Of a stretch of DNA of 64,000 nt, positions 3,843 through 26,148 are shown in pieces. Below the pieces are notes generated by a model. The model had not been told where the DNA came from. It made no database searches and saw nothing but the letters and a program-made list of their open reading frames with translations. Source of the DNA: Pseudokineococcus basanitobsidens (lineage in GTDB: Bacteria > Actinomycetota > Actinomycetes > Actinomycetales > Quadrisphaeraceae); contig NZ_JBBIAA010000001.1 of the NCBI RefSeq assembly GCF_037482545.1, positions 321,226 to 385,225 of the forward strand. Direction: 5' to 3'. Each line of letters opens with the position of its first letter. The first letter of the stretch is position 1. A program made the position numbers and the translations under genes.

Positions 3843-5669
3843 TCAGCGCTCGTAGAAGACCCCGAGCTCCGAGATCGACGTGAAGTGCGCCGAGCCGCCC
3901 GGCTGGCCGATGATCCGCACGCCGTCGCCCCACGTGCGGCGGAACCGCAAGGTGAAGGTGCGTCGCGGACCCGCCTCGGGCGAGAACGGGTAGTCGGGGG
4001 TGATGCGGAGGTCCTCGACGTCCGTCCACACGAAGTCGCGCCGCACCTGCACGCGCAGACCCCCCGCGAAGGCGGAGAACCAGCCGCCGTCGTCCGACAT
4101 CTCTCCGCTCGTGTAGTCGACCCGGTTCATCCGCACCGGCTCGGCGAGCGTGTAGCCCCAGTAGTCGATGCCCTTGTTCGTGCCGTCGAAGCTGTCCTCG
4201 CTGCCCTCGACGCTGCCGTCGTTGTAGAACTCGCGGTTGCCCCGGTGGGCGCACACCTCGAGGGGGGCGACGACGACGTGCCCGCGGACCAGGTTCTCCG
4301 CCTGCGAGGGCAGCCGCGCGCCGTTGCGAGGACGCTGCCGCGTCCACGGCGTCACCTGCACGCGCCGGAGGTTGAAGTTGTAGTTGTCCTCCGGCGACGG
4401 CAGCGGCGCCGTCCACCAGTTGCTCTGCATCCACATCGTCAGGCCGTCCACGCTGACGTACTTGGAGGGCAGCACCGTGCCGTAGCCGCCGTTCTTGGGC
4501 CGGTGGTCGGGGTCGCTCATCTGGTACCACTCGACGAGGCCGGCGCTGTGCACGTGGAACCTCCGCCACGGCCCCCACGGCCGTGGCGCCTCGTAGAGCT
4601 CGAACGTCGGGTCGCTCCACGACGCGTAGAGGAAGCGGTCCAGCGGCGCGTTGTACAGGACGTGCCCCTGCGAGACCACCGTCAGGGCGCCGTTCTTGCC
4701 GGGGCGCGTGTCGGGGAACCGGCGGAGCGGGTCGTGGAGCACGGGTGCCTTGTCCTCGATCCGCGGTGACCAGGAGGGGTGCCCGTCCCGGACACCGGTG
4801 AGGAACTCCCAGCTCTTCCGGTCCTGCACCGCGTCGCCGGGGACCCGCGCGAGGTAGAGGTCCACCGGGTCCGGCACCGTGCCGGCGTTCGACGTCCGCC
4901 AGTTCCAGTCCAGGCCGTAGGCGTAGACGTAGGCGCCGTCGACCGGCCCGAGCGTGGGGACGGCGTGCTCGGAGTCCCGACCGAGGTCGGCGAAGAAGAC
5001 GGTCGTGAAGCGGTGGTCGGTGAACATCGGCTCGTCGGTCGTCGTCCACGTCCGGCCGTGGTCGTCCGAGCGGCTGATGCTGGCGGCGGGCGCGTCGTCG
5101 AAGGCGGCCTCGCCGTACCGCAGGTCCTGGACCGCCAGGTAGAGCACCCCGCCGACGCAGACGATGCCCGTGGGCTTGCGGTTGTAGCGCTCCGGGTCGC
5201 TCCAGACGCGGGCGACCTCCTCGGACTCCGCGAGCTTCTCGCCGCGCAGCCCGGTCTCGGGGGTGCCCTGCACCCGGTTCACCACCAGGTCCCGGAAGGG
5301 CTCGTCGCTGAAGCCGCGGCCGTCGCCGTTGGCCGTGTACACCCAGTCGTCGTCACCCCAGGCGCACGGCCACAGGTCGCCGTCGCTGCCCGGTGCTGCG
5401 TAGGTGCCGGCCACCTCCACGGTCGCCGTCGCGAAGAAGGTGCTCGTCTCCTGGCGCAGGTCGCCCGGCTCGACGTCGTCACGGCGACCGCCCTCGGTCG
5501 GCGCCTGCTGCGGCACCTCATGGGTGACCTGTTGGGCCCACGCCGCCGGCGCCGCAGCCACGGCGCCGCCCGCGAGGGCTCCGCCGCCGAGGAAGCCGCG
5601 TCGCGACAGGCCGTGCCGCGGCTCGTCTCCGTGGTGTCCGTCCGAGCCGTGCACCTCGTGCTCCGCCAT
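3843..5669 (-). CDS. secreted (Tat signal) BNR/Asp-box beta-propeller protein, sialidase-like fold
   Basis: 608 aa. The N-terminus (SRRGFLGGGALAGGAVAAAPAAWA) is a twin-arginine signal, and SRSDDHGRTWT is a BNR/Asp-box motif. Likely an exported glycan-active protein. Confidence 0.7.
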   Translation of the reverse strand: MAEHEVHGSDGHHGDEPRHGLSRRGFLGGGALAGGAVAAAPAAWAQQVTHEVPQQAPTEGGRRDDVEPGDLRQETSTFFATATVEVAGTYAAPGSDGDLWPCAWGDDDWVYTANGDGRGFSDEPFRDLVVNRVQGTPETGLRGEKLAESEEVARVWSDPERYNRKPTGIVCVGGVLYLAVQDLRYGEAAFDDAPAASISRSDDHGRTWTTTDEPMFTDHRFTTVFFADLGRDSEHAVPTLGPVDGAYVYAYGLDWNWRTSNAGTVPDPVDLYLARVPGDAVQDRKSWEFLTGVRDGHPSWSPRIEDKAPVLHDPLRRFPDTRPGKNGALTVVSQGHVLYNAPLDRFLYASWSDPTFELYEAPRPWGPWRRFHVHSAGLVEWYQMSDPDHRPKNGGYGTVLPSKYVSVDGLTMWMQSNWWTAPLPSPEDNYNFNLRRVQVTPWTRQRPRNGARLPSQAENLVRGHVVVAPLEVCAHRGNREFYNDGSVEGSEDSFDGTNKGIDYWGYTLAEPVRMNRVDYTSGEMSDDGGWFSAFAGGLRVQVRRDFVWTDVEDLRITPDYPFSPEAGPRRTFTLRFRRTWGDGVRIIGQPGGSAHFTSISELGVFYER

Positions 5670-5743
5670 GCTCCTCGTCGCCCTTCGTCGCGCGCCGTGC
5701 TCGCCTCCTCCACGCCGTGACGTCGGTCTCCGGCTGCGACGGC

Positions 5744-5759
5744 GAGCAATCGATTGCTC
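5744..5759. promoter_or_regulatory. perfect 16-bp palindrome GAGCAATCGATTGCTC (candidate LacI-type operator)
   Basis: Read directly from the sequence. It lies in the 267-bp leader upstream of the substrate-binding protein gene at 5937 and shares the AATCGATT core with the 12-mers at 5889 and 19417. Confidence 0.5.
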
Positions 5760-5857
5760 GGACCGTAGGAGCCGGTGCTCGGCGTGTCAACGGAGTGCAG
5801 GACATCGCTCACCGCCGGTCGGGCGACGGGCTCGGGTGGAGGCCCCCGTCCGTCCTG

Positions 5858-5900
5858 TTGACGCCGGCACGGCGGCGTCCTAGCGTGTGAAATCGATTCC
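5858..5900 (+). promoter_or_regulatory. promoter (TTGACG-N17-TAGCGT) with adjacent GAAATCGATTCC operator-like 12-mer
   Basis: -35 TTGACG at 5858..5863, -10 TAGCGT at 5881..5886, and the 12-mer at 5889..5900, 36 bp upstream of the ATG at 5937. The 12-mer is identical to 19417..19428. Confidence 0.5.
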
Positions 5901-5936
5901 TCCGGCGCTGCCGGACCCGACGACGGGAGGTCGACG

Positions 5937-7295
5937 ATGACCCCGAGCTCGTCCCCGGGCGGTGGGCCGACGCGCCGCGCCGTCCTCGGTGGTGCCGTGG
6001 GTGCCCTCGCGACCGCGGCGTTCGCCGGGTGTGGCCGCAGCGGCGCGGGAGGCGACGGCCGACCGCTGGAGTTCTGGCAGTTCTACGCGCCGCAGTCGCA
6101 GACCCAGCCCGACCTCGCGGCCCAGAACGAGTGGTTCCTCTCGGCCGTCTCCGACTGGAACGCCGCGCACCCCGAGCAGGTGCGGCCCGTCTTCATCCCC
6201 AACTTCACCGATCCCTCGAACACCCGCCTGGCGACCGCCTTCGCCTCCGGCAGCGGCCCGGACGTGTTCCTCATCAGCCCGGGTGACTTCCTGCGCTACT
6301 ACAACGGCGGCGCGCTCCTGGACCTGCGTCCGTACATGGAGGCCGAGGCGGTCGACGACTTCATCGGCGAGGTGCTGGCGACGCGGGTCGTGGGGGACGG
6401 CGTCTACGCGCTGCCGATGGAGGTGGAGCCGCTCGTCATGTTCTACAGCCGCCCCGCGTGGGAGGCAGCCGGGCTCAGCGAGGGTGACATCCCGACGACG
6501 TGGGACGCGATGCTCGACGTCGCCGAGCGACTCACGACGCCGCAGCAGTCGGGGCTCGTCTTCGAGACGACGCCCGGCTACTTCCAGAACTTCACCTGGT
6601 ACCCGTGGCTCTGGCAGGGCGGCGGGGACGTCGTCGACCCGCGGACGCAGCAGGCCACCTTCGACAGCCCGGCGGCACGCCAGGCGCTGGATCTCTTCGG
6701 GTCCGCGATCCGGCGCGGGGTGGCGCCGCGGACCCTGCCGGCAGCGGGCGACGTCGCCGGCGCCTTCGCCGAGGGGTATGCGGCGACCTGGCAGTCGGGG
6801 ATCTGGCAGGTGGCCAACTTCCGCGCCAACCAGCCGGAGTTCGACTTCGGGGTCTTCACGCTGCCGACACCTCCCGACGGTGTCCCCCGGACGGTCCTCG
6901 GCGGGTGGGCCTGGTGCGTCAACGCGCGGGGACGGGACCCCGACGCGGCCGCCCGCTTCGTCGTCGAGACCATCGGCAGCACCTCGGACGCCTCCGTCGA
7001 GCGCCTCGTGCAGTGGTGCTCGGTGGCCAAGACGGACATGCCCCCACGGCAGTCCGTGGACCGGCGGATGCGGGCCGCCGGCGTCTACGACGACCCGGTC
7101 ATGGGCTTCTTCCGCGAGCAGGCGCTGCCGACCGGCAGGGGGGAACCGCGGTACCCACCGGTCCTCTACAAGGCGGTGTCCAACGCCATCCAACGGGTGC
7201 AGGCGGCCGGCGCCTCACCGGCCGAGCAGGCCGCCGAGGCCCAGGCGGCGGTCGAGGCCTTCCTGCGGACCTACGACGGAGGTTCCCTGGTATGA
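5937..7295 (+). CDS. sugar ABC transporter substrate-binding lipoprotein (CUT1 family)
   Basis: 452 aa. Has a signal peptide plus lipobox (AAFAGC) and the solute-binding family 1 fold. Leads an operon with two permeases. Confidence 0.85.
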   Translation: MTPSSSPGGGPTRRAVLGGAVGALATAAFAGCGRSGAGGDGRPLEFWQFYAPQSQTQPDLAAQNEWFLSAVSDWNAAHPEQVRPVFIPNFTDPSNTRLATAFASGSGPDVFLISPGDFLRYYNGGALLDLRPYMEAEAVDDFIGEVLATRVVGDGVYALPMEVEPLVMFYSRPAWEAAGLSEGDIPTTWDAMLDVAERLTTPQQSGLVFETTPGYFQNFTWYPWLWQGGGDVVDPRTQQATFDSPAARQALDLFGSAIRRGVAPRTLPAAGDVAGAFAEGYAATWQSGIWQVANFRANQPEFDFGVFTLPTPPDGVPRTVLGGWAWCVNARGRDPDAAARFVVETIGSTSDASVERLVQWCSVAKTDMPPRQSVDRRMRAAGVYDDPVMGFFREQALPTGRGEPRYPPVLYKAVSNAIQRVQAAGASPAEQAAEAQAAVEAFLRTYDGGSLV

Positions 7296-8257
7296 CCACC
7301 CTCACCTCGAGAGCCCGCACCGGAGGCGACGAGCCGGCGGCGCGAGGTCGTCGCCGCAGCGTCTCGCCCGCGAGCCGCGCCCGGCAGCGCCGGGAGACGC
7401 GCGCCGCGGTCCTGTTCCTGCTGCCGGACTCCCTCGGTCTGCTCGTCTTCGTCTTCGTGCCGATGGTGCTCGCCATCGCCCTGGGCTTCTTCTCCCTCGA
7501 CGGCTTCGGCAACCTCCGCTTCATCGGCGTGGCGAACTACGTCCGCATGGTCGGGGACCCCCAGTTCTTGCAGAGCGCGGTCGTCACGGTCACCTACCTC
7601 GTGGTGCTCGTGCCCGCCGTCTTCGTCGTCTCGCTGCTGCTGGCCCTCCTCGTGCAGCAGAAGGCGCCCTTCATGGGCGCCATCCGCAGCGCGCTGTTCG
7701 CCCCCTACGTGGTGAGCCTCGTCGTCGTCGGGCTGCTGTGGCAGTTCATGCTCGCCGACCGGGTCGGCATCCTGAACCGGATGCTCGCGACGGTCGGCGT
7801 CCGGGACGTCTCCTGGCTCGGCGACCCGCAGTACACCCTGGGCACGGTCGTGGTGATCAGCATCTGGTTCCAGATGGGTTACTACATGATCATCTTCCTG
7901 GCCGGGCTCCAGGACATCCCCGGCGAGTACTACGAGGCGGCGCGCATCGACGGCGCGAACGCCTGGCAGCGTTTCCGCTCCATCACCTGGCCGTTGCTGC
8001 GCCCCACGGCGCTCTTCGTGCTCATCACCCTGACCATCGCCGTCATCACCGGTGGCTTCGACCTCATCTACATCCTCACCGGCGGAGGTCCTGCGGGTTC
8101 GACCTCGCTGCTCGTCTACTTCGTCTACGAGCAGGCGTTCCTCTTCGGCGAGTACGGCTACGCGGCGGCGGTCGGGTCGGTCCTGGTCCTGGTCCTGCTG
8201 CTGTGGTCGGCGCTGATGTTCAAGCTCACGAGGGGAGGTCGGCTCGATGACGAGTGA
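7292..8257 (+). CDS. sugar ABC transporter permease (MalF-like)
   Basis: The ATG at 7292 overlaps the upstream stop (ATGA). Six TM segments and an EAA-type loop (EAARIDGANAWQRFRSITWPLL). Confidence 0.85.
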   Translation: MTTLTSRARTGGDEPAARGRRRSVSPASRARQRRETRAAVLFLLPDSLGLLVFVFVPMVLAIALGFFSLDGFGNLRFIGVANYVRMVGDPQFLQSAVVTVTYLVVLVPAVFVVSLLLALLVQQKAPFMGAIRSALFAPYVVSLVVVGLLWQFMLADRVGILNRMLATVGVRDVSWLGDPQYTLGTVVVISIWFQMGYYMIIFLAGLQDIPGEYYEAARIDGANAWQRFRSITWPLLRPTALFVLITLTIAVITGGFDLIYILTGGGPAGSTSLLVYFVYEQAFLFGEYGYAAAVGSVLVLVLLLWSALMFKLTRGGRLDDE

Positions 8258-9140
8258 CGCTGCCGCCCGGACAGGTCGGTCGGCGCGGTCCGAGGACGCG
8301 CGGACGGCGGGACCCGCGCGAGGAGACAGGCGGTGGACCCGTCGCTCGGTCGTGCTGCTCCTCGTCGGCGCGGGCGTCGGTCTGGTGACGGTCTTCCCGC
8401 TCGTCTACATGGTGCTCAGCGCCTTCAAGACGGCGGGCGACATCTACGGCACCTCCCTGCTGCCGCCGACGTGGACGCTGGAGAATTTCCGCTACGTCTT
8501 CACCGAGGTCCCTTTCGCCCGGTACATGCTCAACAGCCTCGTGGTGTCGGCGGTGGTGACGGTCGCGGCGCTGCTGTTCCACTCGATGGCGGCCTACGCG
8601 CTGGCGCGGCTGCGATTCCCCGGACGGGAGGCGGTGTTCCTCGTCATCTTCTCGACCCTCCTGGTGAGCCTGCCCGTGGTCCTCATCCCCTCCTTCGTCG
8701 TCGTGCGTTCGCTGGGGATGATCGACAGCTACGCCGGGCTCATCGTGCCGCCCATCTTCAGCGCCTTCGGCATCTTCCTCCTGCGGCAGTTCTACCTCTC
8801 GCTGCCGGCGGAGCTGGAGGAGGCCGCCCTCGTCGACGGGGCGGGCTACTGGCGGATCTACTGGAGCGTCGTCCTGCCGCTGTCACGCCCGATCCTCGCG
8901 GCGCTGGCGGTCTTCTTCTTCCTGGCCAACTGGAACTCCTTCGTCTGGCCGCTCACGATCACCGCCGACCCCGGCCTGCGCGTCGTCCAGGTGGGCATCA
9001 GCACCTTCCAGCAGCAGTACGCGTCCAGCCAGAACTACATCGTGGCGGCGTCCACCGTCGCCGCGCTGCCGACGATGCTGCTGTTCTTCTTCTTCCAGAA
9101 GCAGATCACCGAGTCCATCAAGACCTCCGGCCTCAAGTGA
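8247..9140 (+). CDS. sugar ABC transporter permease (MalG-like)
   Basis: 297 aa with an EAALVDGAGYWRIYWSVVLPLSRP motif. Its start overlaps the end of the previous permease. Confidence 0.85.
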   Translation: MTSDAAARTGRSARSEDARTAGPARGDRRWTRRSVVLLLVGAGVGLVTVFPLVYMVLSAFKTAGDIYGTSLLPPTWTLENFRYVFTEVPFARYMLNSLVVSAVVTVAALLFHSMAAYALARLRFPGREAVFLVIFSTLLVSLPVVLIPSFVVVRSLGMIDSYAGLIVPPIFSAFGIFLLRQFYLSLPAELEEAALVDGAGYWRIYWSVVLPLSRPILAALAVFFFLANWNSFVWPLTITADPGLRVVQVGISTFQQQYASSQNYIVAASTVAALPTMLLFFFFQKQITESIKTSGLK

Positions 9141-9168
9141 GGCGCCTCCCCACCCGCAGGAGCTACCC

Positions 9169-10233
9169 GTGAACCCGCTCGACCTCATGGCCACGCTGCG
9201 TCCTGACGCCAGGACGCGGTCGGCGAGCCCGGAGAACCCCGCCGGCGAGCCCGGGGGCGGGGGTGGCGCCACCGACGGCACGGGGGCCGCGGCGGCGCGC
9301 GACCTGGGTCGGGGCTGGAAGGTGTCGCCCTCGGTCGAGGTCGCCCCCGGCGCCACCCACCCCCTGCTGGAGGCAACGGGCAGCGGTGTCGTGCAGCACC
9401 TGTGGGTGACGACGCACCCGCGCCACTGGCGCGAGCTCGTGCTGCGCATGCACTGGGACGGCGACCCGGCGCCGGCCGTGGAGGTGCCTCTCGGCGACTT
9501 CTTCGGCCAGGGCTGGGGCGAGTTCGCCCAGCTCTCCTCGCAGGTCGTGGCGGCCAACCCCCACGGCGGTCTCAACAGCTACTGGCGCATGCCCTTCCGT
9601 CGCGGCGCGCGCATCACCCTGGACAACCTCGGCGCCGACGCCGCGGTCGTCTACTACCAGGTCACCTGGTCGGAGGAGGAGGTCGGCGAGCACGAGGGGT
9701 ACCTGCACGCCCAGTGGCGCCGCGACCACCCCCTGGAGCGCGGGCGTACCCACGTCCTCCTCGACGGTGTGGAGGGCGCAGGGCACTACGTCGGCACCTA
9801 CCTCGCGTGGGGCGTCAACTCCTCCGGCTGGTGGGGCGAGGGCGAGGTGAAGTTCTACCTCGACGACGACGACGACCTGGCGAGCGTGTGTGGCACCGGC
9901 ACGGAGGACTACTTCGGCGGCGCCTGGAACTTCGACGTCCCCGGGCAGGGCTACACCACCTACTCGACCCCCTACCTCGGCCTGCACCAGGTGCTCCGGC
10001 CGGACGGGTTGTACCGCAGCCAGCAGCGCTTCGGCATGTACCGGTGGCACCTGCCCGACCCGGTGCGCTTCCGCAGCGCGCTGAGGGTGGACGTCCAGGC
10101 GCTCGGCTGGCGCTCCGGCGGCCGGTACCTGCCGCTCGCCGACGACATCGCCTCGACGGCCTTCCTCTACCTCGACCGGACGTCGACGTCGCGTCCGTCA
10201 GCGCCGGGGGTGGACGAGATGGAGGTGCTCTGA
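9169..10233 (+). CDS. GH172 / DUF2961 family glycoside hydrolase (difructose-dianhydride / alpha-furanosidase family)
   Basis: 354 aa. Shows DUF2961 hallmarks (WDGDPAPAVEVPLGDFFGQGWG, GTGTEDYFGGAWN) and is a paralog of 44724..45788. Last gene of the ABC operon. Confidence 0.8.
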   Translation: MNPLDLMATLRPDARTRSASPENPAGEPGGGGGATDGTGAAAARDLGRGWKVSPSVEVAPGATHPLLEATGSGVVQHLWVTTHPRHWRELVLRMHWDGDPAPAVEVPLGDFFGQGWGEFAQLSSQVVAANPHGGLNSYWRMPFRRGARITLDNLGADAAVVYYQVTWSEEEVGEHEGYLHAQWRRDHPLERGRTHVLLDGVEGAGHYVGTYLAWGVNSSGWWGEGEVKFYLDDDDDLASVCGTGTEDYFGGAWNFDVPGQGYTTYSTPYLGLHQVLRPDGLYRSQQRFGMYRWHLPDPVRFRSALRVDVQALGWRSGGRYLPLADDIASTAFLYLDRTSTSRPSAPGVDEMEVL

Positions 10234-11252
10234 CACGTCCGCGCATCCACCCCTGCGGGTCGGCGGGAGCTGCCCCGCACGAGCAGCCGCGCGTCGAGCA
10301 CCACCGTCCGTGCGGGGACGTCCGTAGCCTCGCCGCGCACCCGCTCCAGGAGCAGCTGCGCCGCACGCGTCCCGAGCTCGTAGGCCGGCTGCGCCACGAC
10401 CGTGACGGCCGGCTCGACCAGCGTGCTCCAAGGGGCGTCGTCGAAGGCGACCAGCCCGACGTCCGCTCCCATCCGGAGCCCATGGTCCGCCAGGGCCCGC
10501 AGGACGCCGAGCGCCATGAGCGAGTTGGCGACGAGGAGGGCGTCCGGCGGCTCGTCGGAGTCCAGCAGCGAGGCAGCGGCCGACCGACCGCCTTCCACGG
10601 TGAAGGGCGCCCTCCGGACCAGCGACCCGTCGGCCGACGGCGCCCCCACGGCGTCGCGGTACCCCCGCAGCCGCTCCTCCGCCGTGGCCACCCCCTCGGG
10701 GCCCGTGACGCAGGCCACACGGCCCCACCCCTCCTCGAGGAGGTGCCGTGCGGCGGCCCCGGCCGCCCCCCGCGAGTCGACGAGCACCGCGTCGACGGCG
10801 TCGGGCGACGGTCGGTCGACGCTCACGACCGGGATGCCCGACCGGACGAGCCGGGCGGCGCCGCACCCGGGCGCCGAGGGGGACAGGAGGACGCCGGCGA
10901 CCTGCTCCAGCTCGGCGACGGCGAGGTACTGCGCCTCCTTGGCGGCGTCCTCGTCGGTGTTGCAGAGCAGTACGGAGTAGCCGTTGGCCTGGGCGATGTC
11001 CTCGACGCCGCGGGCGACGGCGGTGAAGAACGGGTTGCTCACGTCGGCGATGAGCAGGGCCCAGACGTCGGTGCGCCGCCGCCGCAGGTTCCGCGCCACG
11101 CCGTTGGGCCGGTAGTCCAACGACGTGGCGGCCTCGAGCACCCGGCGCGCGAGCGCCGGGTCCACGGTGCTGACGCCGTTGAGGGCGCGCGAGGCTGTCG
11201 CGGGGGAGACGCCGGCCATGCGCGCCACGTCCGACAGCTTGGTCACACCCAC
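10167..11252 (-). CDS. LacI family transcriptional regulator
   Basis: N-terminal HTH (LSDVARMAGVSPATASRALNG) plus a periplasmic-binding-fold sugar domain. Its 3' end overlaps the convergent GH172 gene by 67 bp. Confidence 0.8.
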   Translation of the reverse strand: MGVTKLSDVARMAGVSPATASRALNGVSTVDPALARRVLEAATSLDYRPNGVARNLRRRRTDVWALLIADVSNPFFTAVARGVEDIAQANGYSVLLCNTDEDAAKEAQYLAVAELEQVAGVLLSPSAPGCGAARLVRSGIPVVSVDRPSPDAVDAVLVDSRGAAGAAARHLLEEGWGRVACVTGPEGVATAEERLRGYRDAVGAPSADGSLVRRAPFTVEGGRSAAASLLDSDEPPDALLVANSLMALGVLRALADHGLRMGADVGLVAFDDAPWSTLVEPAVTVVAQPAYELGTRAAQLLLERVRGEATDVPARTVVLDARLLVRGSSRRPAGVDARTCQSTSISSTPGADGRDVDVRSR

Positions 11253-11369: not shown

Positions 11370-11390
11370 TTACGTTGACGACCGACGTAA
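11370..11390. promoter_or_regulatory. AT-rich inverted repeat TTACGT-N9-ACGTAA (candidate operator)
   Basis: A locally AT-rich island 35 bp upstream of the GAGAGGAG Shine-Dalgarno of the substrate-binding protein gene at 11425. It lies between the divergent LacI gene and the ABC operon. Confidence 0.4.
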
Positions 11391-11424
11391 AGAGGCCTAC
11401 CGTCCTGCCCGACCGAGAGGAGCG

Positions 11425-12738
11425 ATGGAGCTCATGCCTGTCACCCCAGCGCGCCGAGCGCGCCCCCGTACCTCGACCCGGTCGGCCCTCGTCCGACTCA
11501 CCGCCGCGCTCGCGGCCGTCGCCGCCGGGACGACCGGCTGCACCTTCTCCAGTGCCGAGGCCGGCTCGGGCGACACCGTGCTGACCTTCTGGCACTACTT
11601 CCAGGGCGCCCAGCAGGAGTGGCTCGAGCGGCAGGTCGCCGACTTCGAGGCGGACCACCCCGGCGTCGACATCCAGCTCGTCGAGACCGTCGGGAGCCAG
11701 CACGTGCAGCGGCTGCTCGCCTCGACCGTCACGGGGACCACCCCGGACCTCTTCATCAACAACATCGTCGTCGACTACCCGACCCTGACGTCGGCCGGCG
11801 TGATGCTGGACCTGTCCCCCTACTGGGACGACTACGCCGACGCGGACCAGTTCCCCTCCTCCGCGGTCTGGCGCTCGGGGGACGCGGTCTACGACCTGCT
11901 CCCGTACAACAACCTGCTGGGCCTCTACATGAACACGGACGTGGCCGGTCGGTACGGGATCACCGAGCCCCCCGCGACGCTTCCCGAGCTCGCCCAGGAC
12001 CTCGCCGCGGTCACCGACGGCGGTGACGGCGGGCTCGCCCTGTCCGCGGCACCGTCCGTGGAGGGGGCGTGGCTCTTCGCCCCCGAGCTCCTGGGCGAGG
12101 GCATCGGGTACTGCAACTTCTCCGGACCGCAGGTCGTCGACAGCTTCACGCGCCTCGCCGACTGGGCCCGGGACGGGTACGTCCCGCAGGCGGCGGCCAC
12201 CTGGGACCAGAACGCCTCCTGGCAGCAGTTCATGACGGGGCGCTACGCCTTCGCCCTCAACGGGAACTGGCAGCTCGGCAACGTCGGGTCGGCCGACTTC
12301 GGCTACGTGACGGCGCAGTACCCGGCACCGGCGGACGGCTCCAGCACCGTCTACCCCGGCGGGGAGGGCTTCGCGATCGGCGCGACGAGCGAGCACCCCG
12401 ACCTCGCCTGGGAGTTCCTGCAGGACGAGGTGCTCTCCCGCGACGGCCTGCTGTCCCTGTACGAGGCGGCCGGCTCCATCCCCCTGCGCGCCGACCTGGC
12501 GGACTCCCCGCAGCTCGCCGACGACCCGGACGTGCAGCCCTTCGTCCGCGCGACCCGGAGCACGGCCGAGTGGCCGGACAACACGAGCACCGCGGAGATG
12601 CAGACGGCGCTCGGGGAGGCCGTCAGCGCCACCGTCTCCGGCCAGCTCGGCGGCCGCGCGGCGGCGCGGCAGGCGGTGGCGGACATCGGGCAGGCCCGGT
12701 CCGAGGGCGACGTCGTCGGCGGGGAGGCGTGCTCGTGA
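11425..12738 (+). CDS. sugar ABC transporter substrate-binding lipoprotein
   Basis: The ATG is preceded by GAGAGGAGCG. Has a signal peptide and lipobox (TTGCT) with the family-1 solute-binding fold. Confidence 0.8.
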   Translation: MELMPVTPARRARPRTSTRSALVRLTAALAAVAAGTTGCTFSSAEAGSGDTVLTFWHYFQGAQQEWLERQVADFEADHPGVDIQLVETVGSQHVQRLLASTVTGTTPDLFINNIVVDYPTLTSAGVMLDLSPYWDDYADADQFPSSAVWRSGDAVYDLLPYNNLLGLYMNTDVAGRYGITEPPATLPELAQDLAAVTDGGDGGLALSAAPSVEGAWLFAPELLGEGIGYCNFSGPQVVDSFTRLADWARDGYVPQAAATWDQNASWQQFMTGRYAFALNGNWQLGNVGSADFGYVTAQYPAPADGSSTVYPGGEGFAIGATSEHPDLAWEFLQDEVLSRDGLLSLYEAAGSIPLRADLADSPQLADDPDVQPFVRATRSTAEWPDNTSTAEMQTALGEAVSATVSGQLGGRAAARQAVADIGQARSEGDVVGGEACS

Positions 12739-13664
12739 CCACGCTCGGCGGGCGCACCCTCCCCGCGGCGACGAGGACCCCGAGGCGGCGTCCCGGACGC
12801 GTCCGCCGCCGGCCGCCGGTGGTGTTCCTGCTGCCGACGGCGGTGCTGCTCGTCGTCTTCGGCGCCTACCCGCTCCTCGTGCTCGTCCAGATGTCCTTCA
12901 GCGACGTCGGCCCCGCCACCATCATCGGACCCTGGGACTTCGTGGGCCTCGACAACTACGCCGACGTCCTCGGCGGGGCGGAGGTCTGGCGCTCCCTGCT
13001 GCGCACGGTGGCCGTCGCGGCCGTGCTGCTCCTGAGCAACCTCGTGCTGGGCTTCGTCGTGGCGTCCCTGCTGTCCTTCGAGGGGCGCGTGACCTCCCTC
13101 GTCCTCAGCGTCATGGTCTTCATCTGGGCCCTGCCCCCGCTGGTCAGCGGCAGCACCTGGCGCTTCCTCCTCGACGACACGGGGCTGGTCAACGCGGTCC
13201 TCGGCCTGGTCGGGGTGGGGCCGGTCCCCTGGCTCTCGGAGCCGCGGCTCGCGCTGTGGAGCGTGACCGCCGTCATCGCCTGGGGGGCGCTGCCCTTCTC
13301 GGCCCTGATCCTGCGGGGCGGCCTGCTCGCGGTCGACCCCCAGGTGGTCGAGGCGGCGGCCATCGACGGGGCCGGCTACTGGCGGACCCAGGTGCAGGTG
13401 GTGCTGCCGCTCCTACGGCCCACCCTGTGGATCCTCGGCATCCTCACCGTGCTCTACGCCTTCAAGAGCTTCGACTACTTCTACGTGCTCACCCAGGGCG
13501 GACCCGGCACGGCCACGAACACCCTGCCGGTGCAGTCCTACTACGCGGCCTTCACCGACTTCGACATGAGCACCGGTGCGACCGTCGCCGTGGTCGCGAT
13601 GGCCGTCGTCGTCGCCCTCGCCGTGCCGTACGTGCGCAGCCTCCGGCGGGAGGGGGACGCGTGA
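12735..13664 (+). CDS. sugar ABC transporter permease
   Basis: GTG start overlapping the upstream stop (GTGA). Has TM segments and an EAAAIDGAGYWRTQVQVVLPLLRP loop. Confidence 0.8.
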   Translation: MTTLGGRTLPAATRTPRRRPGRVRRRPPVVFLLPTAVLLVVFGAYPLLVLVQMSFSDVGPATIIGPWDFVGLDNYADVLGGAEVWRSLLRTVAVAAVLLLSNLVLGFVVASLLSFEGRVTSLVLSVMVFIWALPPLVSGSTWRFLLDDTGLVNAVLGLVGVGPVPWLSEPRLALWSVTAVIAWGALPFSALILRGGLLAVDPQVVEAAAIDGAGYWRTQVQVVLPLLRPTLWILGILTVLYAFKSFDYFYVLTQGGPGTATNTLPVQSYYAAFTDFDMSTGATVAVVAMAVVVALAVPYVRSLRREGDA

Positions 13665-14497
13665 ACCGCTTCGTCAGCGGCCCGACGAAGGGCCTCTTCG
13701 CCGTGCTGCGCGTCGTGCTCGCGCTCGCCTACCTCGTCCCGCTCGCCTGGGTCGTGGTGACGTCGCTCAAGAGCGGCCCCGAGGTGCTGCGGTCGCCCAA
13801 CGCCCTGCTCTTCACCCCCACGCTCGACACCTACCGGGACGTCGTGGGGGACGGGCTGGAGGCCATCGCCACGTCGCTGCAGATCGCGGTGCTCGTGACG
13901 CTCGTCGTCCTCGTCGTCGCGGTGCCCGCCGCCTTCGCGCTGGCCCGGCGGATCTCGCCGGTGTGGGAGCGGGTCATCGCGGTCGGGCTCGCCGTCCTGC
14001 TCGTGCTGCAGATGGTGCCGCAGCCGATGACGGTCATCCCGCTGTTCAGCGTGCTGGCGCAGTGGGGCCTGCTCGGGAACCTCGCCGGGCTGGTGCTCGC
14101 CGACATCGCCCTGCTCCTGCCCTTCGGGGTCATGCTGCTGCGCCCCTTCGCGCTGGCCATCTCTCCGAGCCTCTACGAGGCGGCCGAGATCGACGGCGCG
14201 TCCACCGTGCAGAGCTTCCGGCTCATCACCGTGCCGATGCTCTCGAACGGCATCTTCACGGTGATGAGCGTCATCTTCATCACGGCCTGGGGTGAGTTCG
14301 TCTACGCCATCAACTTCCTGCCCCTCGGCGTCGTCCCGCCGGTCTCCGGCCTCCTGGCGCAGCAGAACACCACCTACGCCGCCAACTGGAACGACCTCAT
14401 GGCGCTGGCTGTGCTCACCTCGCTGCCGCTGCTGGTCGTCTTCGTCCTCTCGCAGCGACGGCTGCGCAGCGGGCTGTCGCTGGGGGCGGTGAAGTGA
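13661..14497 (+). CDS. sugar ABC transporter permease
   Basis: GTGA-type overlap with the previous permease. Has an EAAEIDGASTVQSFRLITVPML loop. Confidence 0.8.
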   Translation: MNRFVSGPTKGLFAVLRVVLALAYLVPLAWVVVTSLKSGPEVLRSPNALLFTPTLDTYRDVVGDGLEAIATSLQIAVLVTLVVLVVAVPAAFALARRISPVWERVIAVGLAVLLVLQMVPQPMTVIPLFSVLAQWGLLGNLAGLVLADIALLLPFGVMLLRPFALAISPSLYEAAEIDGASTVQSFRLITVPMLSNGIFTVMSVIFITAWGEFVYAINFLPLGVVPPVSGLLAQQNTTYAANWNDLMALAVLTSLPLLVVFVLSQRRLRSGLSLGAVK

Positions 14498-15756
14498 CGG
14501 CGGCGGAGCCGGACGGGCAGCGGCCCGTCGTCGTCCTCGTGGGGGCGCTGGACACCAAGGCCGCCGAGTACGAGCACCTGCGGGACCGTCTCGAGTCCTC
14601 CGGCGTGCGCGCCGCGGTGGTGGACGTCGGGGTCCTCGGCCCGGTGCGCGCCGACGTCGAGGTCGACCGGCGTGCCGTCGCGGCCGCCGCTGGCGCGGAG
14701 CTCGACGCCCTCGTGGCCGCCGGCGACCGCGGCGCGGCCGTCACCGCCATGGCGCGGGGGGCTGCGGCCGTGGTCGCCCGGATGCACGCGGAGGGGAGGC
14801 TGCACGGCCTCCTGGTGGCGGGTGGGTCCGGCGCGGCGCACGTCATGAGCCGCTGCGCTCAAGCGCTCCCGCTCGGGTGCCCGAAGGTCCTCGTCTCGAC
14901 CGTCGTCGCCGGGGACACGCGGCCGTACGTGGGGACGAGCGACCTCGTGATGATGCACTCCGTCGTCGACCTCACCGGCGTCGACTCCATCAGCGCCGTC
15001 GTGCTGGCGAGGGCGGCGGACGCGTGCGCCGGCATGGTGTTCGGTGCCGTCGCTGCCCCGCCCACGGCGCCGGTGCCGGCGGACGTCGTCGCGTGCTCGG
15101 TCCTCGGGGTCACGACGGCCGGGACGGTCGCCGTCTCCGGCGACCTCCGACGCCGCGGCCTCGAGGTCCACGCGTTCCACGCCAACGGGACCGGCGGCCG
15201 CTGCCTCGAGGCGCTCGTGCGCTCCGGCCTCGTCACGGCCGTGGCGGACCTCACGCCGGGCGAGGTGGCGGACGAGGTGTGCGGGGGGGCCTTCAGCGCC
15301 GGCCCAGGCCGGATGGAGGCGGCGGGGGAGCGGGGCGTCCCCCAGGTGGTGAGCACCGGCGGGCTGGACATGGTGAAGTTCGGCCCCCGCGAGACACTCC
15401 CGGAGGCGGTGGCCGGGCGCCGGCTGCACGTCCACAACCCTGCGGTGACCCTCGTGCGCACCGACGCCCGGGAGTGCGCCGCGATCGGCGCCGTCGTCGC
15501 GGAGAAGCTGAACCGCGCCACCGGTCCGGTAGAGGTGCACGTGCCCCTCGGCGGCTGGTCCGAGCTGTCCGTCCCCGGCGGGCCCTTCCACGACCCCGAC
15601 GCCGACGCGGCGCTGGTGGACGCCCTGCGCGACGGTCTCGCTCCGCGCGTGGAGGTCCACCTGCACGAGGGCGACGTCAACGACCCGGTCTTCGCCACCG
15701 CCGTCGCCGCGGCGCTGGCGCGGACCGTCGAGCAGGACCACCGACCGAGGAGCTGA
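14494..15756 (+). CDS. UPF0261 / Tm-1-like ATP-binding family protein
   Basis: 420 aa. The N-terminus (PVVVLVGALDTKAAEY) is typical of the Tm-1-like family. GTGA overlap with the permease stop. Confidence 0.65.
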   Translation: MTAAEPDGQRPVVVLVGALDTKAAEYEHLRDRLESSGVRAAVVDVGVLGPVRADVEVDRRAVAAAAGAELDALVAAGDRGAAVTAMARGAAAVVARMHAEGRLHGLLVAGGSGAAHVMSRCAQALPLGCPKVLVSTVVAGDTRPYVGTSDLVMMHSVVDLTGVDSISAVVLARAADACAGMVFGAVAAPPTAPVPADVVACSVLGVTTAGTVAVSGDLRRRGLEVHAFHANGTGGRCLEALVRSGLVTAVADLTPGEVADEVCGGAFSAGPGRMEAAGERGVPQVVSTGGLDMVKFGPRETLPEAVAGRRLHVHNPAVTLVRTDARECAAIGAVVAEKLNRATGPVEVHVPLGGWSELSVPGGPFHDPDADAALVDALRDGLAPRVEVHLHEGDVNDPVFATAVAAALARTVEQDHRPRS

Positions 15757-15762
15757 GACGCG

Positions 15763-16665
15763 ATGGCAGCAGAGACCGACGGACCCACCGACGAGCGGGC
15801 GCACCGGGACGGCGCCGCGCCGCCGGGGCGACGCCTGGCCGAGCGGCTGCGGGCCAAGGTCGCCGCGGGGTCGCCGATCATCGGCGGCGGCGCGGGGACA
15901 GGCCTGTCCGCCAAGTGCTCCGAGGCCGCGGGTCTCGACTTCGTCGTCGTGTACAACTCCGGCCGCTACCGGATGGCGGGCCGCAGCTCGATGGCCGGTC
16001 TCATGCCGTACGGGGACGCCAACGCCATCGTCATGGAGATGGGCCAGGAGGTGCTGCCGGTCGTGCGCGACCTGCCGGTCGTCGCCGGCGTCTGCGGGAC
16101 CGACCCCTTCCGGCTCATGCCCGTCTTCCTCCGGCAGGTGCGCGACGCCGGCTTCTGCGGGGTTCAGAACTACCCGACCGTGTGCCTCTTCGAGGGCGTC
16201 ATCAGGGCGAACCTGGAGGAGACGGGGCTGGGCTTCGACCGTGAGGTGGCGATGATCGCGACGGCGCGCGAGCTCGACCTCTTCACCGCCAGCTACGTGG
16301 CCAACCCCGACGAGGCGGAGGCCATGGCTGCCGCCGGTGCCGACGTCGTCGTCGCCCACATGGGCCTGACGACCTCGGGGATGGTCGGCGCGCAGACCGC
16401 GATGACGCTGGAGCAGGCCAAGGCGAAGGTGGGGGAGCTCGCCCGCGCGGCGCGCTCGGCGCGGCCGGACGTGCTCGTCGTCTGCCACGGCGGCCCGGTC
16501 CACGGCCCGCAGGAGGCCGCCGCCGTCATCGCCGACGTGCCCGAGGTCGTCGGCTTCCTCGGCGCCTCGAGCATGGAGAGGCTCCCCACCGAGACGGCCA
16601 TGGTCGACCACATGCGCAGCTTCACGGAGATCGGGATGCCCGCCGGGCGCGGGGGCGGCTCGTGA
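15763..16665 (+). CDS. phosphoenolpyruvate hydrolase-like (TIM-barrel) protein, usual partner of UPF0261
   Basis: 300 aa (IIGGGAGTGLSAKCSEAAGLDFVVVYNSGRYRMAGRSS). The UPF0261 plus PEP-hydrolase-like pairing is a known but uncharacterised gene pair. Confidence 0.65.
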   Translation: MAAETDGPTDERAHRDGAAPPGRRLAERLRAKVAAGSPIIGGGAGTGLSAKCSEAAGLDFVVVYNSGRYRMAGRSSMAGLMPYGDANAIVMEMGQEVLPVVRDLPVVAGVCGTDPFRLMPVFLRQVRDAGFCGVQNYPTVCLFEGVIRANLEETGLGFDREVAMIATARELDLFTASYVANPDEAEAMAAAGADVVVAHMGLTTSGMVGAQTAMTLEQAKAKVGELARAARSARPDVLVVCHGGPVHGPQEAAAVIADVPEVVGFLGASSMERLPTETAMVDHMRSFTEIGMPAGRGGGS

Positions 16666-16976
16666 GCCACCGCATGGTCATCGTCTACGGGGCGCCCGAG
16701 GACCCGGCCGCGTTCCGCCGCTACTACGAGGACCACCACGTGCCGCTGGCCCGGGCCATGGCCGGGCTGACCCGGTGGGACCTCGTCTGGCTGGACCGCG
16801 GTGGCGACGGGGACGGCCGGTACGCGCTGGTGGCCGAGCTGACCGCGGAGAGCGCCGAGGCGATGGACCGGGTGCTCGCCACGCCCGAGGGCCGCGCCGC
16901 CCGGGACGACCTCGAGCGCTTCGTCACCGGGACGGTCGACTTCCTGCGCGGGGACGTCGAGGAGGTCGCGCTGTGA
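16662..16976 (+). CDS. EthD-like / Dabb-fold small protein
   Basis: 104 aa (MVIVYGAPEDPAAFRRYYEDHHVPLA). GTGA overlap upstream and downstream. Confidence 0.55.
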   Translation: MSHRMVIVYGAPEDPAAFRRYYEDHHVPLARAMAGLTRWDLVWLDRGGDGDGRYALVAELTAESAEAMDRVLATPEGRAARDDLERFVTGTVDFLRGDVEEVAL

Positions 16977-19382: not shown

Positions 19383-19428
19383 TTGACGGTCCTCCGCCGT
19401 CGTCCTACGGTTCTCAGAAATCGATTCC
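19383..19428 (+). promoter_or_regulatory. promoter (TTGACG-N17-TACGGT) with GAAATCGATTCC 12-mer
   Basis: -35 at 19383..19388, -10 at 19406..19411, 12-mer at 19417..19428. The GGAGGGGG Shine-Dalgarno and GTG at 19449 follow. The site sits in the region divergent from the ROK regulator gene. Confidence 0.5.
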
Positions 19429-19448
19429 TCACCACGGAGGGGGCTCGG

Positions 19449-22069: not shown

Positions 22070-22131
22070 CGTGCGGACCGGTGGACGGTGCCCGGTCCAG
22101 GTGCTGACGACGGACGGTCGGTCGTGCATGT

Positions 22132-22165
22132 CCTGACAAGCGGACCCATGGCGACGGTTGTCAGG
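22132..22165. promoter_or_regulatory. inverted repeat CCTGACAA-N18-TTGTCAGG
   Basis: Lies in the 178-bp gap between the isomerase-family gene and the DHQS-like gene. Could be an operator or a weak terminator. Confidence 0.35.
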
Positions 22166-22247
22166 TCGCGCGACTACCGTGCCCGCGCACGCCAGGAGCA
22201 CCCGCCGAGCCCTCCGGCACGGGCGGTACCGAGCGCGGGAGGACCCG

Positions 22248-25080: not shown

Positions 25081-25193
25081 CTGGCGCACGCGACCGGCCC
25101 GGTCGGCGTCCTGCCGGGGGCCGGCGCGCGGGCCGGGCCCCGCCGACGGACCGCGCCCCGGCCGCCGGGGGGCTGCTGCCTACGCTGCGCCGC

Positions 25194-26012: not shown

Positions 26013-26148
26013 GCCCCCCCGCCTCCACGCGCCCCCCGCCGCCACCGCGGCGGCGGTGGTCCGCTGCTCCGTCCGGGTGGTCCGCGGCCGGCGGGACGTG
26101 GCGGCGCGTCATCACTCTGGGGCGTTTTCGAACACGACGCGTGACGAC

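What the first reader, a model, noticed from the sequence alone, without database searches (positions are those of the whole stretch)
5744..5900. Identical 12-mer GAAATCGATTCC with matching promoter architecture at two distant loci, plus a perfect AATCGATT-core palindrome
TTGACG-N17-TA(G/C)(C/G)GT followed within 2-5 nt by GAAATCGATTCC occurs at 5858..5900, ahead of ABC operon 1, and again at 19383..19428, ahead of the LacI-like gene without an HTH and divergent from the ROK regulator. A perfect 16-bp palindrome GAGCAATCGATTGCTC with the same AATCGATT core sits at 5744..5759. Exact 12-nt identity in 72%-GC non-coding DNA is very unlikely by chance. It implies one repressor controls both the GH172 importer operon and the cyclase locus. 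The repressor is probably the ROK protein or the LacI at 10167..11252.
Basis: seen in the sequence. Interest (0 to 1): 0.65.

Follow-up and report, generated by a model that had tools for sequence, protein, structure and literature searches.

The report
LacI operator of a D-arabinan regulon
The repeated GAAATCGATTCC sequence is most likely the binding site of a LacI-type sugar repressor that controls three promoters for genes this actinobacterium uses to degrade D-arabinan, a mycobacterial cell-wall polymer; the mechanism is ordinary, but I found no description of this regulator and site for that pathway in the literature I could search.

Summary
GAAATCGATTCC, in fact the 14-mer GAAATCGATTCCTC, occurs at 5889 and 19417. 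A perfect 18-bp palindrome with the same AATCGATT core lies at 5743..5760. These are the only AATCGATT copies in the 64 kb. All three sit 0-3 nt after the -10 box of a TTGAC(A/G)-N17-TAnnGT promoter. The palindrome's promoter is on the minus strand, ahead of a secreted DUF4185 (GH183-like) gene.

The window comes from Pseudokineococcus basanitobsidens. In 61 high-GC GH172 loci from other genomes, the motif (consensus TGAAATCGATTTCA) gives 82 sites in 37 loci, against 0 in simulations. None lies inside an identified gene. The sites precede GH172, DUF4185, GH116, ABC-transporter, FucI-like isomerase, FGGY kinase and LacI genes, which make up the published D-arabinan degradation cluster.

An ortholog of the LacI at 10167..11252 is present in 27 of the 37 motif-bearing loci. 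No ROK homolog is present in any locus. ROK orthologs instead pair with the second ABC operon and a different 21-bp box, present at 11370..11390.

Verdict: this is a LacI-family operator of a D-arabinan/D-arabinose regulon, a new member of a known kind. The "cyclase" is probably not a direct target. The gene directly downstream of site 2 is an orphan LacI paralog without an HTH, whose role is unexplained.

The parts
5887..5902 (.). Operator O1, GTGAAATCGATTCCTC (12-mer core 5889..5900). Its centre lies 42.5 nt upstream of the SBP1 start codon.
5858..5886 (+). Promoter of the SBP1-permease-permease-GH172 operon: -35 TTGACG 5858..5863, 17-nt spacer, -10 TAGCGT 5881..5886. The operator begins directly after the -10 box.
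   Evidence: sequence-based prediction; the transcription start was not mapped
5743..5760 (.). Operator O3, a perfect 18-bp palindrome CGAGCAATCGATTGCTCG. Its centre lies 82.5 nt upstream of the DUF4185 start codon.
5762..5790 (-). Promoter of the DUF4185 gene on the minus strand: -35 TTGACA 5790..5785, 17-nt spacer, -10 TACGGT 5767..5762, then 2 nt before O3.
19415..19430 (.). Operator O2, CAGAAATCGATTCCTC (12-mer core 19417..19428). Its centre lies 26.5 nt upstream of the LacI' start codon and 75.5 nt upstream of the ROK start codon.
19383..19411 (+). Promoter of the LacI'-isomerase operon: -35 TTGACG 19383..19388, 17-nt spacer, -10 TACGGT 19406..19411, then 3 nt before O2.
10167..11252 (-). 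Full-length LacI-family repressor, proposed to bind O1-O3. It has the HTH AGVSPATASRALN and the hinge PNGVARNLRRRR, and lies convergent with the 3' end of the GH172 gene.
3843..5669 (-). DUF4185 (GH183-like) protein with a twin-arginine signal peptide (SRRGFL...AWA). Candidate secreted endo-D-arabinanase and target of O3.
5937..10233 (+). Operon controlled by O1: lipoprotein SBP1 (5937..7295), two permeases (about 7300..8250 and 8247..9140), and GH172 (9169..10233). The GH172 is an ortholog of an exo-alpha-D-arabinofuranosidase.
19449..20366 (+). LacI', a LacI-family effector-binding domain without an HTH, and the first gene after O2. It is an orphan: the best non-self homolog is 40% identical.
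20414..22069 (+). FucI-like isomerase, a candidate D-arabinose isomerase. It starts 47 nt after LacI' ends and is the conserved regulon member downstream of O2.

Best explanation
The three AATCGATT-core sites are operators of a LacI/GalR-family repressor, most likely the product of 10167..11252. Together they define a local regulon for using D-arabinan or D-arabinofuranosides.

Proposed mechanism:
- Each operator is a 16-18 bp even palindrome with a central CG.
- Each begins 0-3 nt after the -10 hexamer of a near-consensus promoter, so a bound dimer would cover the predicted transcription start and block initiation.
- Without substrate, the repressor holds three units off: the secreted DUF4185/GH183-like arabinanase, the SBP1 ABC importer with the GH172 exo-alpha-D-arabinofuranosidase, and the LacI'-FucI-like isomerase operon.
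- A pathway sugar, probably D-arabinose or a D-arabino-oligosaccharide, would bind the effector domain and release the repressor.

Shown here:
- The sites and their promoter geometry.
- Conservation of the motif in front of the same gene families in many actinobacterial genera.
- Co-occurrence of the motif with orthologs of this LacI.
- Co-variation between the HTH and hinge sequence and the operator flanks.

Inferred, not shown: DNA binding itself, the sign of regulation, and the identity of the inducer.
For: 1. Motif type. The sites are even palindromes with a central CG. That is the signature of 1173 of 1303 LacI-family motifs in PMC4052901.

2. Conservation. In 61 high-GC GH172 loci there are 82 sites of at least 18 bits, in 37 loci, against 0 in five Markov simulations. 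None of the 82 lies inside an identified gene. The consensus is TGAAATCGATTTCA.

3. Target genes. Genes directly downstream of sites are GH172 (39 site-gene pairs), LacI (23), FGGY kinase (16), SBPs, DUF4185, GH116 and FucI-like. This is the gene set of the published D-arabinan cluster (PMC10509167).

4. Co-occurrence with the regulator. 27 of 28 loci with a LacI at least 42% identical to 10167..11252 carry a site, against 10 of 33 without one (Fisher 5e-8).

5. Group membership of the window LacI. It keeps 72 of 80 effector-domain residues conserved in that group, against 33-55% for paralogs.

6. Closest homologs (59-73% identical):
- One lies convergent with GH172 (L088).
- Others lie next to GH116/ABC or FucI-like/FGGY genes, with related operators: L084 AGGTAATCGATTCCTC, L083 GGTAATCGTTTCCTC after TTGACG-N17-TAGAGT, and L089 CTGAAATCGATTACTG.

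7. Co-variation. Regulators with SR(A/T)LN + PNGVARNLR, the window type, go with GAG...CTC flanks. Those with SRVFN + PNRTARSLR go with TG...CA flanks. In the window, five of the six half-sites carry A at the flank position where the first group has A and the second has T (four read GAG).

8. Geometry. TTGAC lies 37-40 nt upstream of the operator centre at 23 of 85 sites, in more than 10 genera including the window.

9. Function. The GH172 matches PDB 8IC8, an exo-alpha-D-arabinofuranosidase, at E = 8e-158. D-arabinose induces the Microbacterium cluster.
Against: - No binding or expression data exist for this organism.
- The window LacI has no AATCGATT site in front of its own gene, whereas about three quarters of local LacI regulators are autoregulated. 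The closest homolog, L088, lacks one too.
- The window LacI is divergent from ABC operon 2, so on position alone it could have been that operon's regulator.
- The rest of the P. basanitobsidens genome could not be scanned, so another paralog might be the true binder.
- Nine Kribbella loci carry the motif but have no LacI within 10 kb.
- The genomes are related, so the Fisher test overstates independence. The PWM was trained on the same loci it was then used to count.
- O2 lies 26.5 nt from the start codon, just outside the usual -140..-30 range.
Confidence: 0.78

Rival explanations
1. The divergently encoded ROK regulator (18103..19347) binds the AATCGATT sites and controls both loci.
For: O2 lies in the 101-bp ROK/LacI' intergenic region, 75.5 nt from the ROK start. 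One related contig, L085, has a ROK ortholog about 3 kb from a motif site.
Against: - No ROK homolog (E <= 1e-10, at least 50% coverage) occurs in any of the 80 GH172 loci, 37 of which carry the motif.
- ROK orthologs in L085 and in L086 (Leifsonia poae) are divergent from SBP-permease-permease-UPF0261-PEP_hydrolase-EthD-GFO operons, the equivalent of the window's ABC operon 2.
- Those intergenic regions carry a different conserved box, TTA(C/T)(G/A)TTGAC...(C/T)(G/A)TAA. In the window it overlaps the SBP2 -35 at 11370..11390.
- The L085 motif site sits in front of an SBP1 ortholog (53% identical), not in front of the ROK gene.
- An even palindrome with a central CG is the LacI-family signature.
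Confidence: 0.04
2. The sites are LacI-family operators, but the binder is another LacI paralog. This could be one encoded elsewhere in the genome or the third LacI at 49626..50729. The LacI at 10167..11252 would then serve a different operon.
For: - The window LacI is not autoregulated through this motif and is divergent from ABC operon 2.
- The rest of the genome could not be searched.
- LacI paralogs abound: three LacI-like genes lie in this window alone.
Against: - The window LacI keeps 90% of the residues conserved in the motif-linked ortholog group.
- Its HTH and hinge type matches the GAG...CTC operator flank type found in the window.
- It sits next to the GH172 operon, as its orthologs do.
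- The third LacI is only 35% identical. It has its own perfect palindrome, ATGTATGCGCATACAT (50789..50804), in front of its neighbouring SBP gene.
- The SBP2 promoter carries the ROK-type box, not a LacI-type site.
Confidence: 0.12
3. The repeated sequence is a dispersed repeat or a duplication remnant with no regulatory role, or a chance match.
For: Exact 14-nt identity, plus a shared CGTCCTA just upstream of the -10 box, could suggest that a promoter segment was duplicated.
Against: - There are only three copies in 64 kb, all at the same position relative to a -10 box.
- Outside the -35 box, the -10 box and the operator, the two promoters are not alike.
- The motif is conserved in front of orthologous genes in many genera, where the flanking DNA is unrelated.
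- No shuffle approached the observed count.
Confidence: 0.02

Closest known systems
Local LacI/GalR-family sugar repressors and their operators (for example E. coli GalR, RbsR, PurR; regulon survey in PMC4052901)
   Same: - The regulator has an N-terminal LacI HTH and a periplasmic-binding-protein-like effector domain.
- The operator is a 16-18 bp even palindrome with a central CG, lying in the promoter of sugar-utilisation genes next to the regulator gene.
- From memory, the E. coli gal operator OE, GTGTAAACGATTCCAC, closely resembles GTGAAATCGATTCCTC.
   Different: - The window LacI is not an equivalog of any named regulator. Its best NCBIfam scores (CytR 201 bits, RbsR 188 bits, CcpA 176 bits) fall far below their cut-offs.
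- The regulon is D-arabinan/D-arabinose use.
- The window copy appears not to be autoregulated.
D-arabinan degradation gene cluster of Microbacterium arabinogalactanolyticum (Shimokawa et al. 2023, PMC10509167) and the GH172/GH183 enzymes of Al-Jourani et al. 2023 (PMC10115798)
   Same: - The gene families match: DUF4185/GH183, GH172 (E = 8e-158 to 8IC8), an ABC importer and a FucI-like isomerase.
- Microbacterium loci with the same gene order carry the motif before GH172, the LacI, the FGGY-GH116-isomerase unit, the SBP and DUF4185 genes.
- That cluster is induced by D-arabinose.
   Different: - The paper does not mention a regulator, repressor or LacI at all.
- The window lacks GH116 and a close ortholog of the kinase.
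- In the window the genes are split into two sites 13.5 kb apart, with an unrelated ROK-controlled operon between them.
CcpA-cre catabolite control in Firmicutes (cre consensus TGWAANCGNTNWCA, from memory)
   Same: The consensus TGAAATCGATTTCA fits the cre pattern, and CcpA is a LacI-family protein.
   Different: - This is a local regulon of a handful of promoters, with the regulator encoded in the locus.
- The organisms are Actinomycetota.
- Motif-like hits in the Bacillales loci may be true cre sites and were not used as evidence.
ROK-family repressors (NagC/Mlc type)
   Same: A ROK regulator with an N-terminal winged HTH is encoded next to O2.
   Different: Its orthologs go with another operon and another, odd-length box. 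It is not linked to the motif.

Membership tests
LacI/GalR-family repressor-operator system | Regulator with an N-terminal LacI-type HTH (PF00356) and a periplasmic-binding-protein-like effector domain | tested here: met
   In the 10167..11252 product, PF00356 covers residues 6-50 and Peripla_BP_1/3/4 cover residues 65-329.
LacI/GalR-family repressor-operator system | Operator is an even palindrome of 16-22 bp with a central CG | tested here: met
   O3 is a perfect 18-bp palindrome. O1 and O2 are 16-mers with 12 of 16 symmetric positions, and all three are centred on CG. The criterion comes from PMC4052901.
LacI/GalR-family repressor-operator system | Sites lie in promoter regions, typically 30-140 nt upstream of the start codon | tested here: met
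   The centres lie 42.5 and 82.5 nt upstream. O2, at 26.5 nt, is marginally outside the range. All three directly follow a predicted -10 box.
LacI/GalR-family repressor-operator system | Regulator gene and motif co-occur next to the same target genes across genomes | tested here: met
   27 of 28 loci with an ortholog carry a site. The HTH and operator flanks co-vary. The closest homologs have related sites.
LacI/GalR-family repressor-operator system | Specific DNA binding that is relieved by a sugar effector | not testable with these tools
   Needs EMSA or footprinting and effector titration.
D-arabinan utilisation cluster (GH183 / GH172 / GH116 type) | GH172 exo-alpha-D-arabinofuranosidase | tested here: met
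   E = 8e-158 over residues 4-353 to PDB 8IC8. The match to the difructose-dianhydride enzyme 7V1V is only 3e-31.
D-arabinan utilisation cluster (GH183 / GH172 / GH116 type) | DUF4185/GH183 endo-D-arabinanase | tested here: inconclusive
   Pfam DUF4185 matches at E = 2.4e-12. The protein is 44-65% identical to DUF4185 genes in related loci and has a Tat signal. It has no sequence match to any solved structure, and its activity is untested.
D-arabinan utilisation cluster (GH183 / GH172 / GH116 type) | GH116 exo-beta-D-arabinofuranosidase | tested here: not met
   tblastn with the L024 GH116 finds nothing in the 64-kb window. It could lie elsewhere in the genome.
D-arabinan utilisation cluster (GH183 / GH172 / GH116 type) | [quoted passage not shown] | tested here: inconclusive
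   A FucI-like isomerase is present, 65-82% identical to the cluster-linked ones. The only FGGY kinase in the window is 28% identical to the cluster kinase and looks gluconokinase-like.
ROK regulator as the cognate factor | ROK gene co-occurs with the motif in related genomes | tested here: not met
   None of the 80 loci has a ROK homolog. ROK orthologs pair with a different operon and box.
Dispersed repeat element | Many copies, extended similarity, positions unrelated to promoters | tested here: not met
   There are three copies in 64 kb, all adjacent to a -10 box, and similarity is limited to the functional elements. A whole-genome count was not possible.

The most novel reading that the evidence does not exclude
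LacI' (19449..20366) may be a working part of the switch rather than debris. It is a LacI-family effector domain with no HTH, encoded as the first gene behind operator O2, and has no ortholog among 5.8 billion clustered proteins.

The idea is that LacI' is produced only after derepression. It would then form mixed dimers with the full-length LacI, or soak up the inducer, or partner with the adjacent ROK protein. Any of these would give positive or negative feedback on the D-arabinan regulon: an operator-controlled anti-repressor made from a beheaded repressor.

The evidence does not exclude this:
- Codon-position GC looks coding, and the gene has a ribosome-binding site.
- NCBI annotates it as an intact gene.
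- Among the motif-linked LacIs compared here, its closest relative is the window's own LacI (39%).
- A second HTH-less LacI-like gene lies next to a ROK gene in Leifsonia poae (L086).

Nothing positively supports it either, and a decaying duplicate is the simpler reading.
Probability: 0.08. Interest if true: 0.65.

Novelty: new member of a known kind. Interest (0 to 1): 0.4.

Why it matters
D-arabinan-degrading enzymes (GH183, GH172, GH116) were identified only in 2023. They are of interest because they cut mycobacterial arabinogalactan and lipoarabinomannan.

The papers I could search describe the enzymes and their induction by D-arabinose, but no regulator or operator. A conserved operator (TGAAATCGATTTCA) tied to a LacI ortholog group offers three practical gains:
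- It can delimit the regulon in any actinobacterial genome.
- It can flag uncharacterised members, such as the FucI-like isomerase family (no solved structure, no NCBIfam model), the transporters, and extra DUF4185 paralogs.
- It provides a candidate D-arabinose-responsive switch for high-GC hosts.

The mechanism itself is textbook, so the gain is a useful annotation rather than a new principle.

Tried and rejected
- **ROK as the binder.** Rejected after finding no ROK in 80 motif-bearing or related loci and a separate conserved ROK box with ABC operon 2.
- **Repeat element or chance.** Rejected.
- **E. coli-type promoter and terminator scan.** It found nothing at either site. The -10 boxes are of the actinobacterial TAnnnT type, so this says nothing against the promoters.
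- **Fetching the source contig.** An exact look-up of LacI' failed, so no genome-wide scan was possible. The organism was identified from 100% identical database proteins instead.
- **PDB sequence searches.** Searches for the DUF4185 protein and the FucI-like isomerase found nothing.
- **A remnant of an HTH-coding sequence upstream of LacI'.** Only noise-level hits appeared near 19.3-19.6 kb. That search did reveal the third LacI gene at 49.6 kb.
- **Whether LacI' keeps the effector-domain residues of the D-arabinan LacI group.** It keeps 53%, between true orthologs (90%) and unrelated paralogs (33-42%), which is not informative.
- **Literature.** No paper contains the operator sequence as a regulatory site. 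None links GH172, GH183 or D-arabinan to a LacI regulator, apart from a gene-list mention in Bifidobacterium.
- **The 'cyclase' as a direct target.** This is considered doubtful.

Full report
**Observation**

The 12-mer GAAATCGATTCC is at 5889..5900 and 19417..19428, and the identity runs to 14 nt, GAAATCGATTCCTC.

The palindrome GAGCAATCGATTGCTC is at 5744..5759, within a perfect 18-bp palindrome at 5743..5760. Allowing two mismatches, the 12-mer gives 7 strand-matches against 0.45 expected, and none of 100 shuffles reached that. AATCGATT occurs nowhere else in the 64 kb. A PWM built from the three sites scores them 28-29 bits, and the next best position scores 10.

On the minus strand the palindrome is preceded by TTGACA (5790..5785), a 17-nt spacer and TACGGT (5767..5762), followed by 2 nt. 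All three sites therefore sit 0-3 nt after the -10 box of a near-consensus promoter:
- one promoter for the DUF4185 gene (ATG at 5669, minus strand);
- one for the SBP1 operon (ATG at 5937);
- one for LacI' (GTG at 19449).

The promoter consensus is not specific to this regulon. The SBP2 promoter also reads TTGACG-N17-TACCGT (11375..11403) but carries a different inverted repeat.

**Organism and genes**

Three window proteins are 100% identical to proteins annotated from Pseudokineococcus basanitobsidens, order Kineosporiales. The window is 75.8% GC. The gene map below comes from codon-position GC, Pfam and NCBIfam.

| Coordinates | Strand | Product |
|---|---|---|
| 3843..5669 | - | DUF4185 protein with a Tat signal |
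| 5937..10233 | + | lipoprotein SBP1, two permeases, GH172 |
| 10167..11252 | - | full-length LacI |
| about 11425..18118 | + | SBP2, two permeases, UPF0261, PEP-hydrolase-like, GFO/IDH/MocA |
| 18103..19347 | - | ROK regulator |
| 19449..20366 | + | LacI', a LacI effector domain without an HTH |
| 20414..22069 | + | FucI-like isomerase |
| 22249..23417 | + | DHQ-synthase-like protein |
| 23463..about 25010 | - | FGGY kinase |

The GH172 matches the solved exo-alpha-D-arabinofuranosidase 8IC8 at E = 8e-158 over its full length. Its match to the difructose-dianhydride enzyme is only 3e-31.

DUF4185/GH183, GH172, GH116, an ABC importer, an isomerase and a kinase make up the D-arabinan cluster of Microbacterium arabinogalactanolyticum. 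That cluster is induced by D-arabinose and by mycobacterial envelope (PMC10509167).

**Conservation of the motif**

A scan of one genome per species with the GH172 protein returned 80 loci at 57-71% identity. In the 61 high-GC loci (1.1 Mb), a PWM built from the AATCGATT-core sites finds 82 sites of at least 18 bits in 37 loci. Five Markov simulations gave none, and none of the 82 sites lies inside an identified gene. The consensus is TGAAATCGATTTCA.

Genera with sites include Microbacterium, Promicromonospora, Sanguibacter, Planctomonas, Cryobacterium, Actinocatenispora, Flexivirga, Streptomyces and Kribbella.

Genes directly downstream of sites are GH172 (39 site-gene pairs), LacI (23), FGGY kinase (16), SBPs (11), DUF4185 (at least 8), GH116 (3) and FucI-like (2). 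The motif therefore marks the D-arabinan gene set.

TTGAC lies 37-40 nt upstream of the operator centre at 23 of 85 sites, across more than ten genera. The operator-after-the-(-10) geometry is therefore conserved, not peculiar to this window.

**Which regulator binds**

A LacI-family gene at least 42% identical to 10167..11252 is present in 28 of the 61 loci, and 27 of those carry a site. Among the 33 loci without such a gene, 10 carry a site, and nine of those ten are Kribbella (Fisher 5e-8; the genomes are not independent). In Microbacterium the LacI gene is divergent from GH172 with a site between them, and a second site precedes the kinase operon.

Further evidence for the window LacI:
- It keeps 72 of 80 effector-domain residues that are at least 85% conserved in this group. 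Unrelated paralogs keep 33-42%.
- Its closest database homolog (73%) is convergent with a GH172 gene, as in the window (L088).
- Its 59-62% homologs neighbour SBP-permease-GH116, FucI-like-FGGY or FGGY genes and have related operators:
  - L084: AGGTAATCGATTCCTC;
  - L083: GGTAATCGTTTCCTC, after TTGACG-N17-TAGAGT;
  - L089: CTGAAATCGATTACTG and CAGAAAACGATTTCAA;
  - L081: GGTAAACGATTACC.
- The regulator sequence and the operator flanks co-vary. Proteins with ...SR(A/T)LN and PNGVARNLR, the window type, go with GAG-AAATCGATTT-CTC. Proteins with ...SRVFN and PNRTARSLR go with TG...CA, with T at that flank position in 78 of 114 half-sites. In the window, five of the six half-sites carry A at that position (four read GAG).

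**The ROK alternative**

No ROK homolog is present in any of the 80 loci. ROK orthologs (49% identical) in an ENA contig (L085) and in Leifsonia poae (L086) are divergent from SBP-permease-permease-UPF0261-PEP_hydrolase-EthD-GFO operons, which is the content of the window's ABC operon 2.

Their intergenic DNA carries TTACGTTGACAGTCAACATTA and TTATATTGACAGTCAACATAA. The window has TTACGTTGACGACCGACGTAA at 11370..11390, overlapping the SBP2 -35 box. ROK therefore belongs with operon 2.

A third LacI gene in the window, at 49626..50729, is 35% identical to the first. It has its own perfect palindrome, ATGTATGCGCATACAT, at 50789..50804.

**The second locus**

O2 precedes LacI' and, 47 nt after LacI' ends, the FucI-like isomerase. 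The isomerase is 65-82% identical to those in the related clusters. In those clusters it is preceded by motif sites directly, or through the kinase or LacI gene.

The DHQ-synthase-like 'cyclase' starts 179 nt after the isomerase, behind an inverted repeat at 22132..22165. It has no counterpart in any related locus. It may be read through, but it is not a supported target.

LacI' is an orphan:
- The best non-self hit among 5.8 billion clustered proteins is 40% identical and has an HTH.
- Among the motif-linked LacIs compared, its best match is the window's own LacI, at 39%.
- No HTH remnant lies upstream of it.

In Promicromonospora the order is site-LacI-site-isomerase. LacI' may therefore be the positional remnant of an autoregulated copy.

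**Mechanism**

The sites, their geometry, their conservation and their link to the LacI group are shown. The rest is inferred. A LacI dimer on an operator that begins right after the -10 box would occlude the transcription start. A D-arabinan-derived sugar would release it, switching on the secreted arabinanase, the importer with the intracellular GH172, and the isomerase. D-arabinose is the first candidate inducer, by analogy with the Microbacterium induction data.

**Known versus new**

The motif meets the family criteria of PMC4052901: an even palindrome, a central CG and a promoter-proximal position. The protein is not an equivalog of any named regulator.

The D-arabinan papers do not mention a regulator. 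No searchable paper contains the operator or links these enzyme families to a LacI, apart from a gene list in Bifidobacterium. I class this as a new member of a known kind.

**Caveats**

- There are no experimental data.
- There was no whole-genome scan of the source organism.
- The related genomes inflate the statistics, and the PWM was trained and counted on the same loci.
- The window LacI lacks its own operator.
- The Kribbella loci lack a nearby LacI.
- Hits in the Bacillales loci may be CcpA cre sites and were not used.

Noticed in passing
window 11370..11390 (box) and 11375..11403 (promoter); L085 about 6724..6744; L086 8917..8937: A 21-bp inverted repeat, TTACGTTGACGACCGACGTAA, overlaps the -35 box of the SBP2 promoter. 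Close versions lie between ROK orthologs and SBP-permease-permease-UPF0261-PEP_hydrolase-EthD-GFO operons in two other genomes. This is probably the operator of the ROK regulator at 18103..19347.
   Followed up: partly
window 19449..20366: LacI' is a LacI-family effector domain with no HTH and is the first gene after operator O2. It has no ortholog anywhere: the best hit is 40% identical and has an HTH. It could be a remnant or a neofunctionalised modulator; which is unknown.
   Followed up: partly
window 49626..50729 and 50789..50804: A third LacI-family regulator, 35% identical to the one at 10167. It is followed by a perfect 16-bp palindrome, ATGTATGCGCATACAT, in front of an SBP gene starting at 50875. 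This looks like a separate repressor-operator pair.
   Followed up: partly
window 22070..22248 (inverted repeat 22132..22165) and 22249..23417: The DHQ-synthase-like or sugar-phosphate-cyclase-like gene scores 216 bits against aroB, below the cut-off of 305. It has a 179-nt leader with the inverted repeat CCTGACAAGCG-N12-CGGTTGTCAGG. It has no counterpart in the 80 related loci.
   Followed up: no
L086 15243..17287 (Leifsonia poae): Another HTH-less Peripla_BP_3 protein (262 aa) lies directly upstream of a second ROK gene, after an ABC transporter. It is only 27% identical to LacI'. This may be a recurring pairing of ROK with a headless LacI.
   Followed up: partly
L085 26..13440: The ROK/SBP2-type operon and an SBP1-type importer with a motif site (AAGCAATCGATTTCTC at 11278) are neighbours here, as they are in the window. 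The two modules may be functionally linked. The substrate of the UPF0261/PEP-hydrolase-like/GFO module is unknown.
   Followed up: no
L054, L056, L057, L064, L076, L058, L078 (Streptomyces): Besides canonical CAGAAATCGATTTCAG sites, these loci carry variants with a non-CG centre. GTGAAATGGATTTCAG lies before GH172, after a TTGACA-N17-TACGTT promoter. GTGAAAAGGATTTCAC lies before the LacI gene.
   Followed up: no
L002, L004, L005, L007-L010, L012, L015 (Kribbella): The motif lies about 90 nt upstream of GH172, but no LacI ortholog is found within 10 kb. In at least L015 the divergent gene is an ECF-type sigma factor.
   Followed up: no
window 23463..26045 (minus strand): The open frame holding the FGGY kinase has about 345 extra N-terminal codons with no Pfam hit. 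Either the start lies near 25010 or an unrecognised gene shares the frame. The kinase looks gluconokinase-like (450 bits, cut-off 649) and is only 28% identical to the cluster kinase.
   Followed up: no
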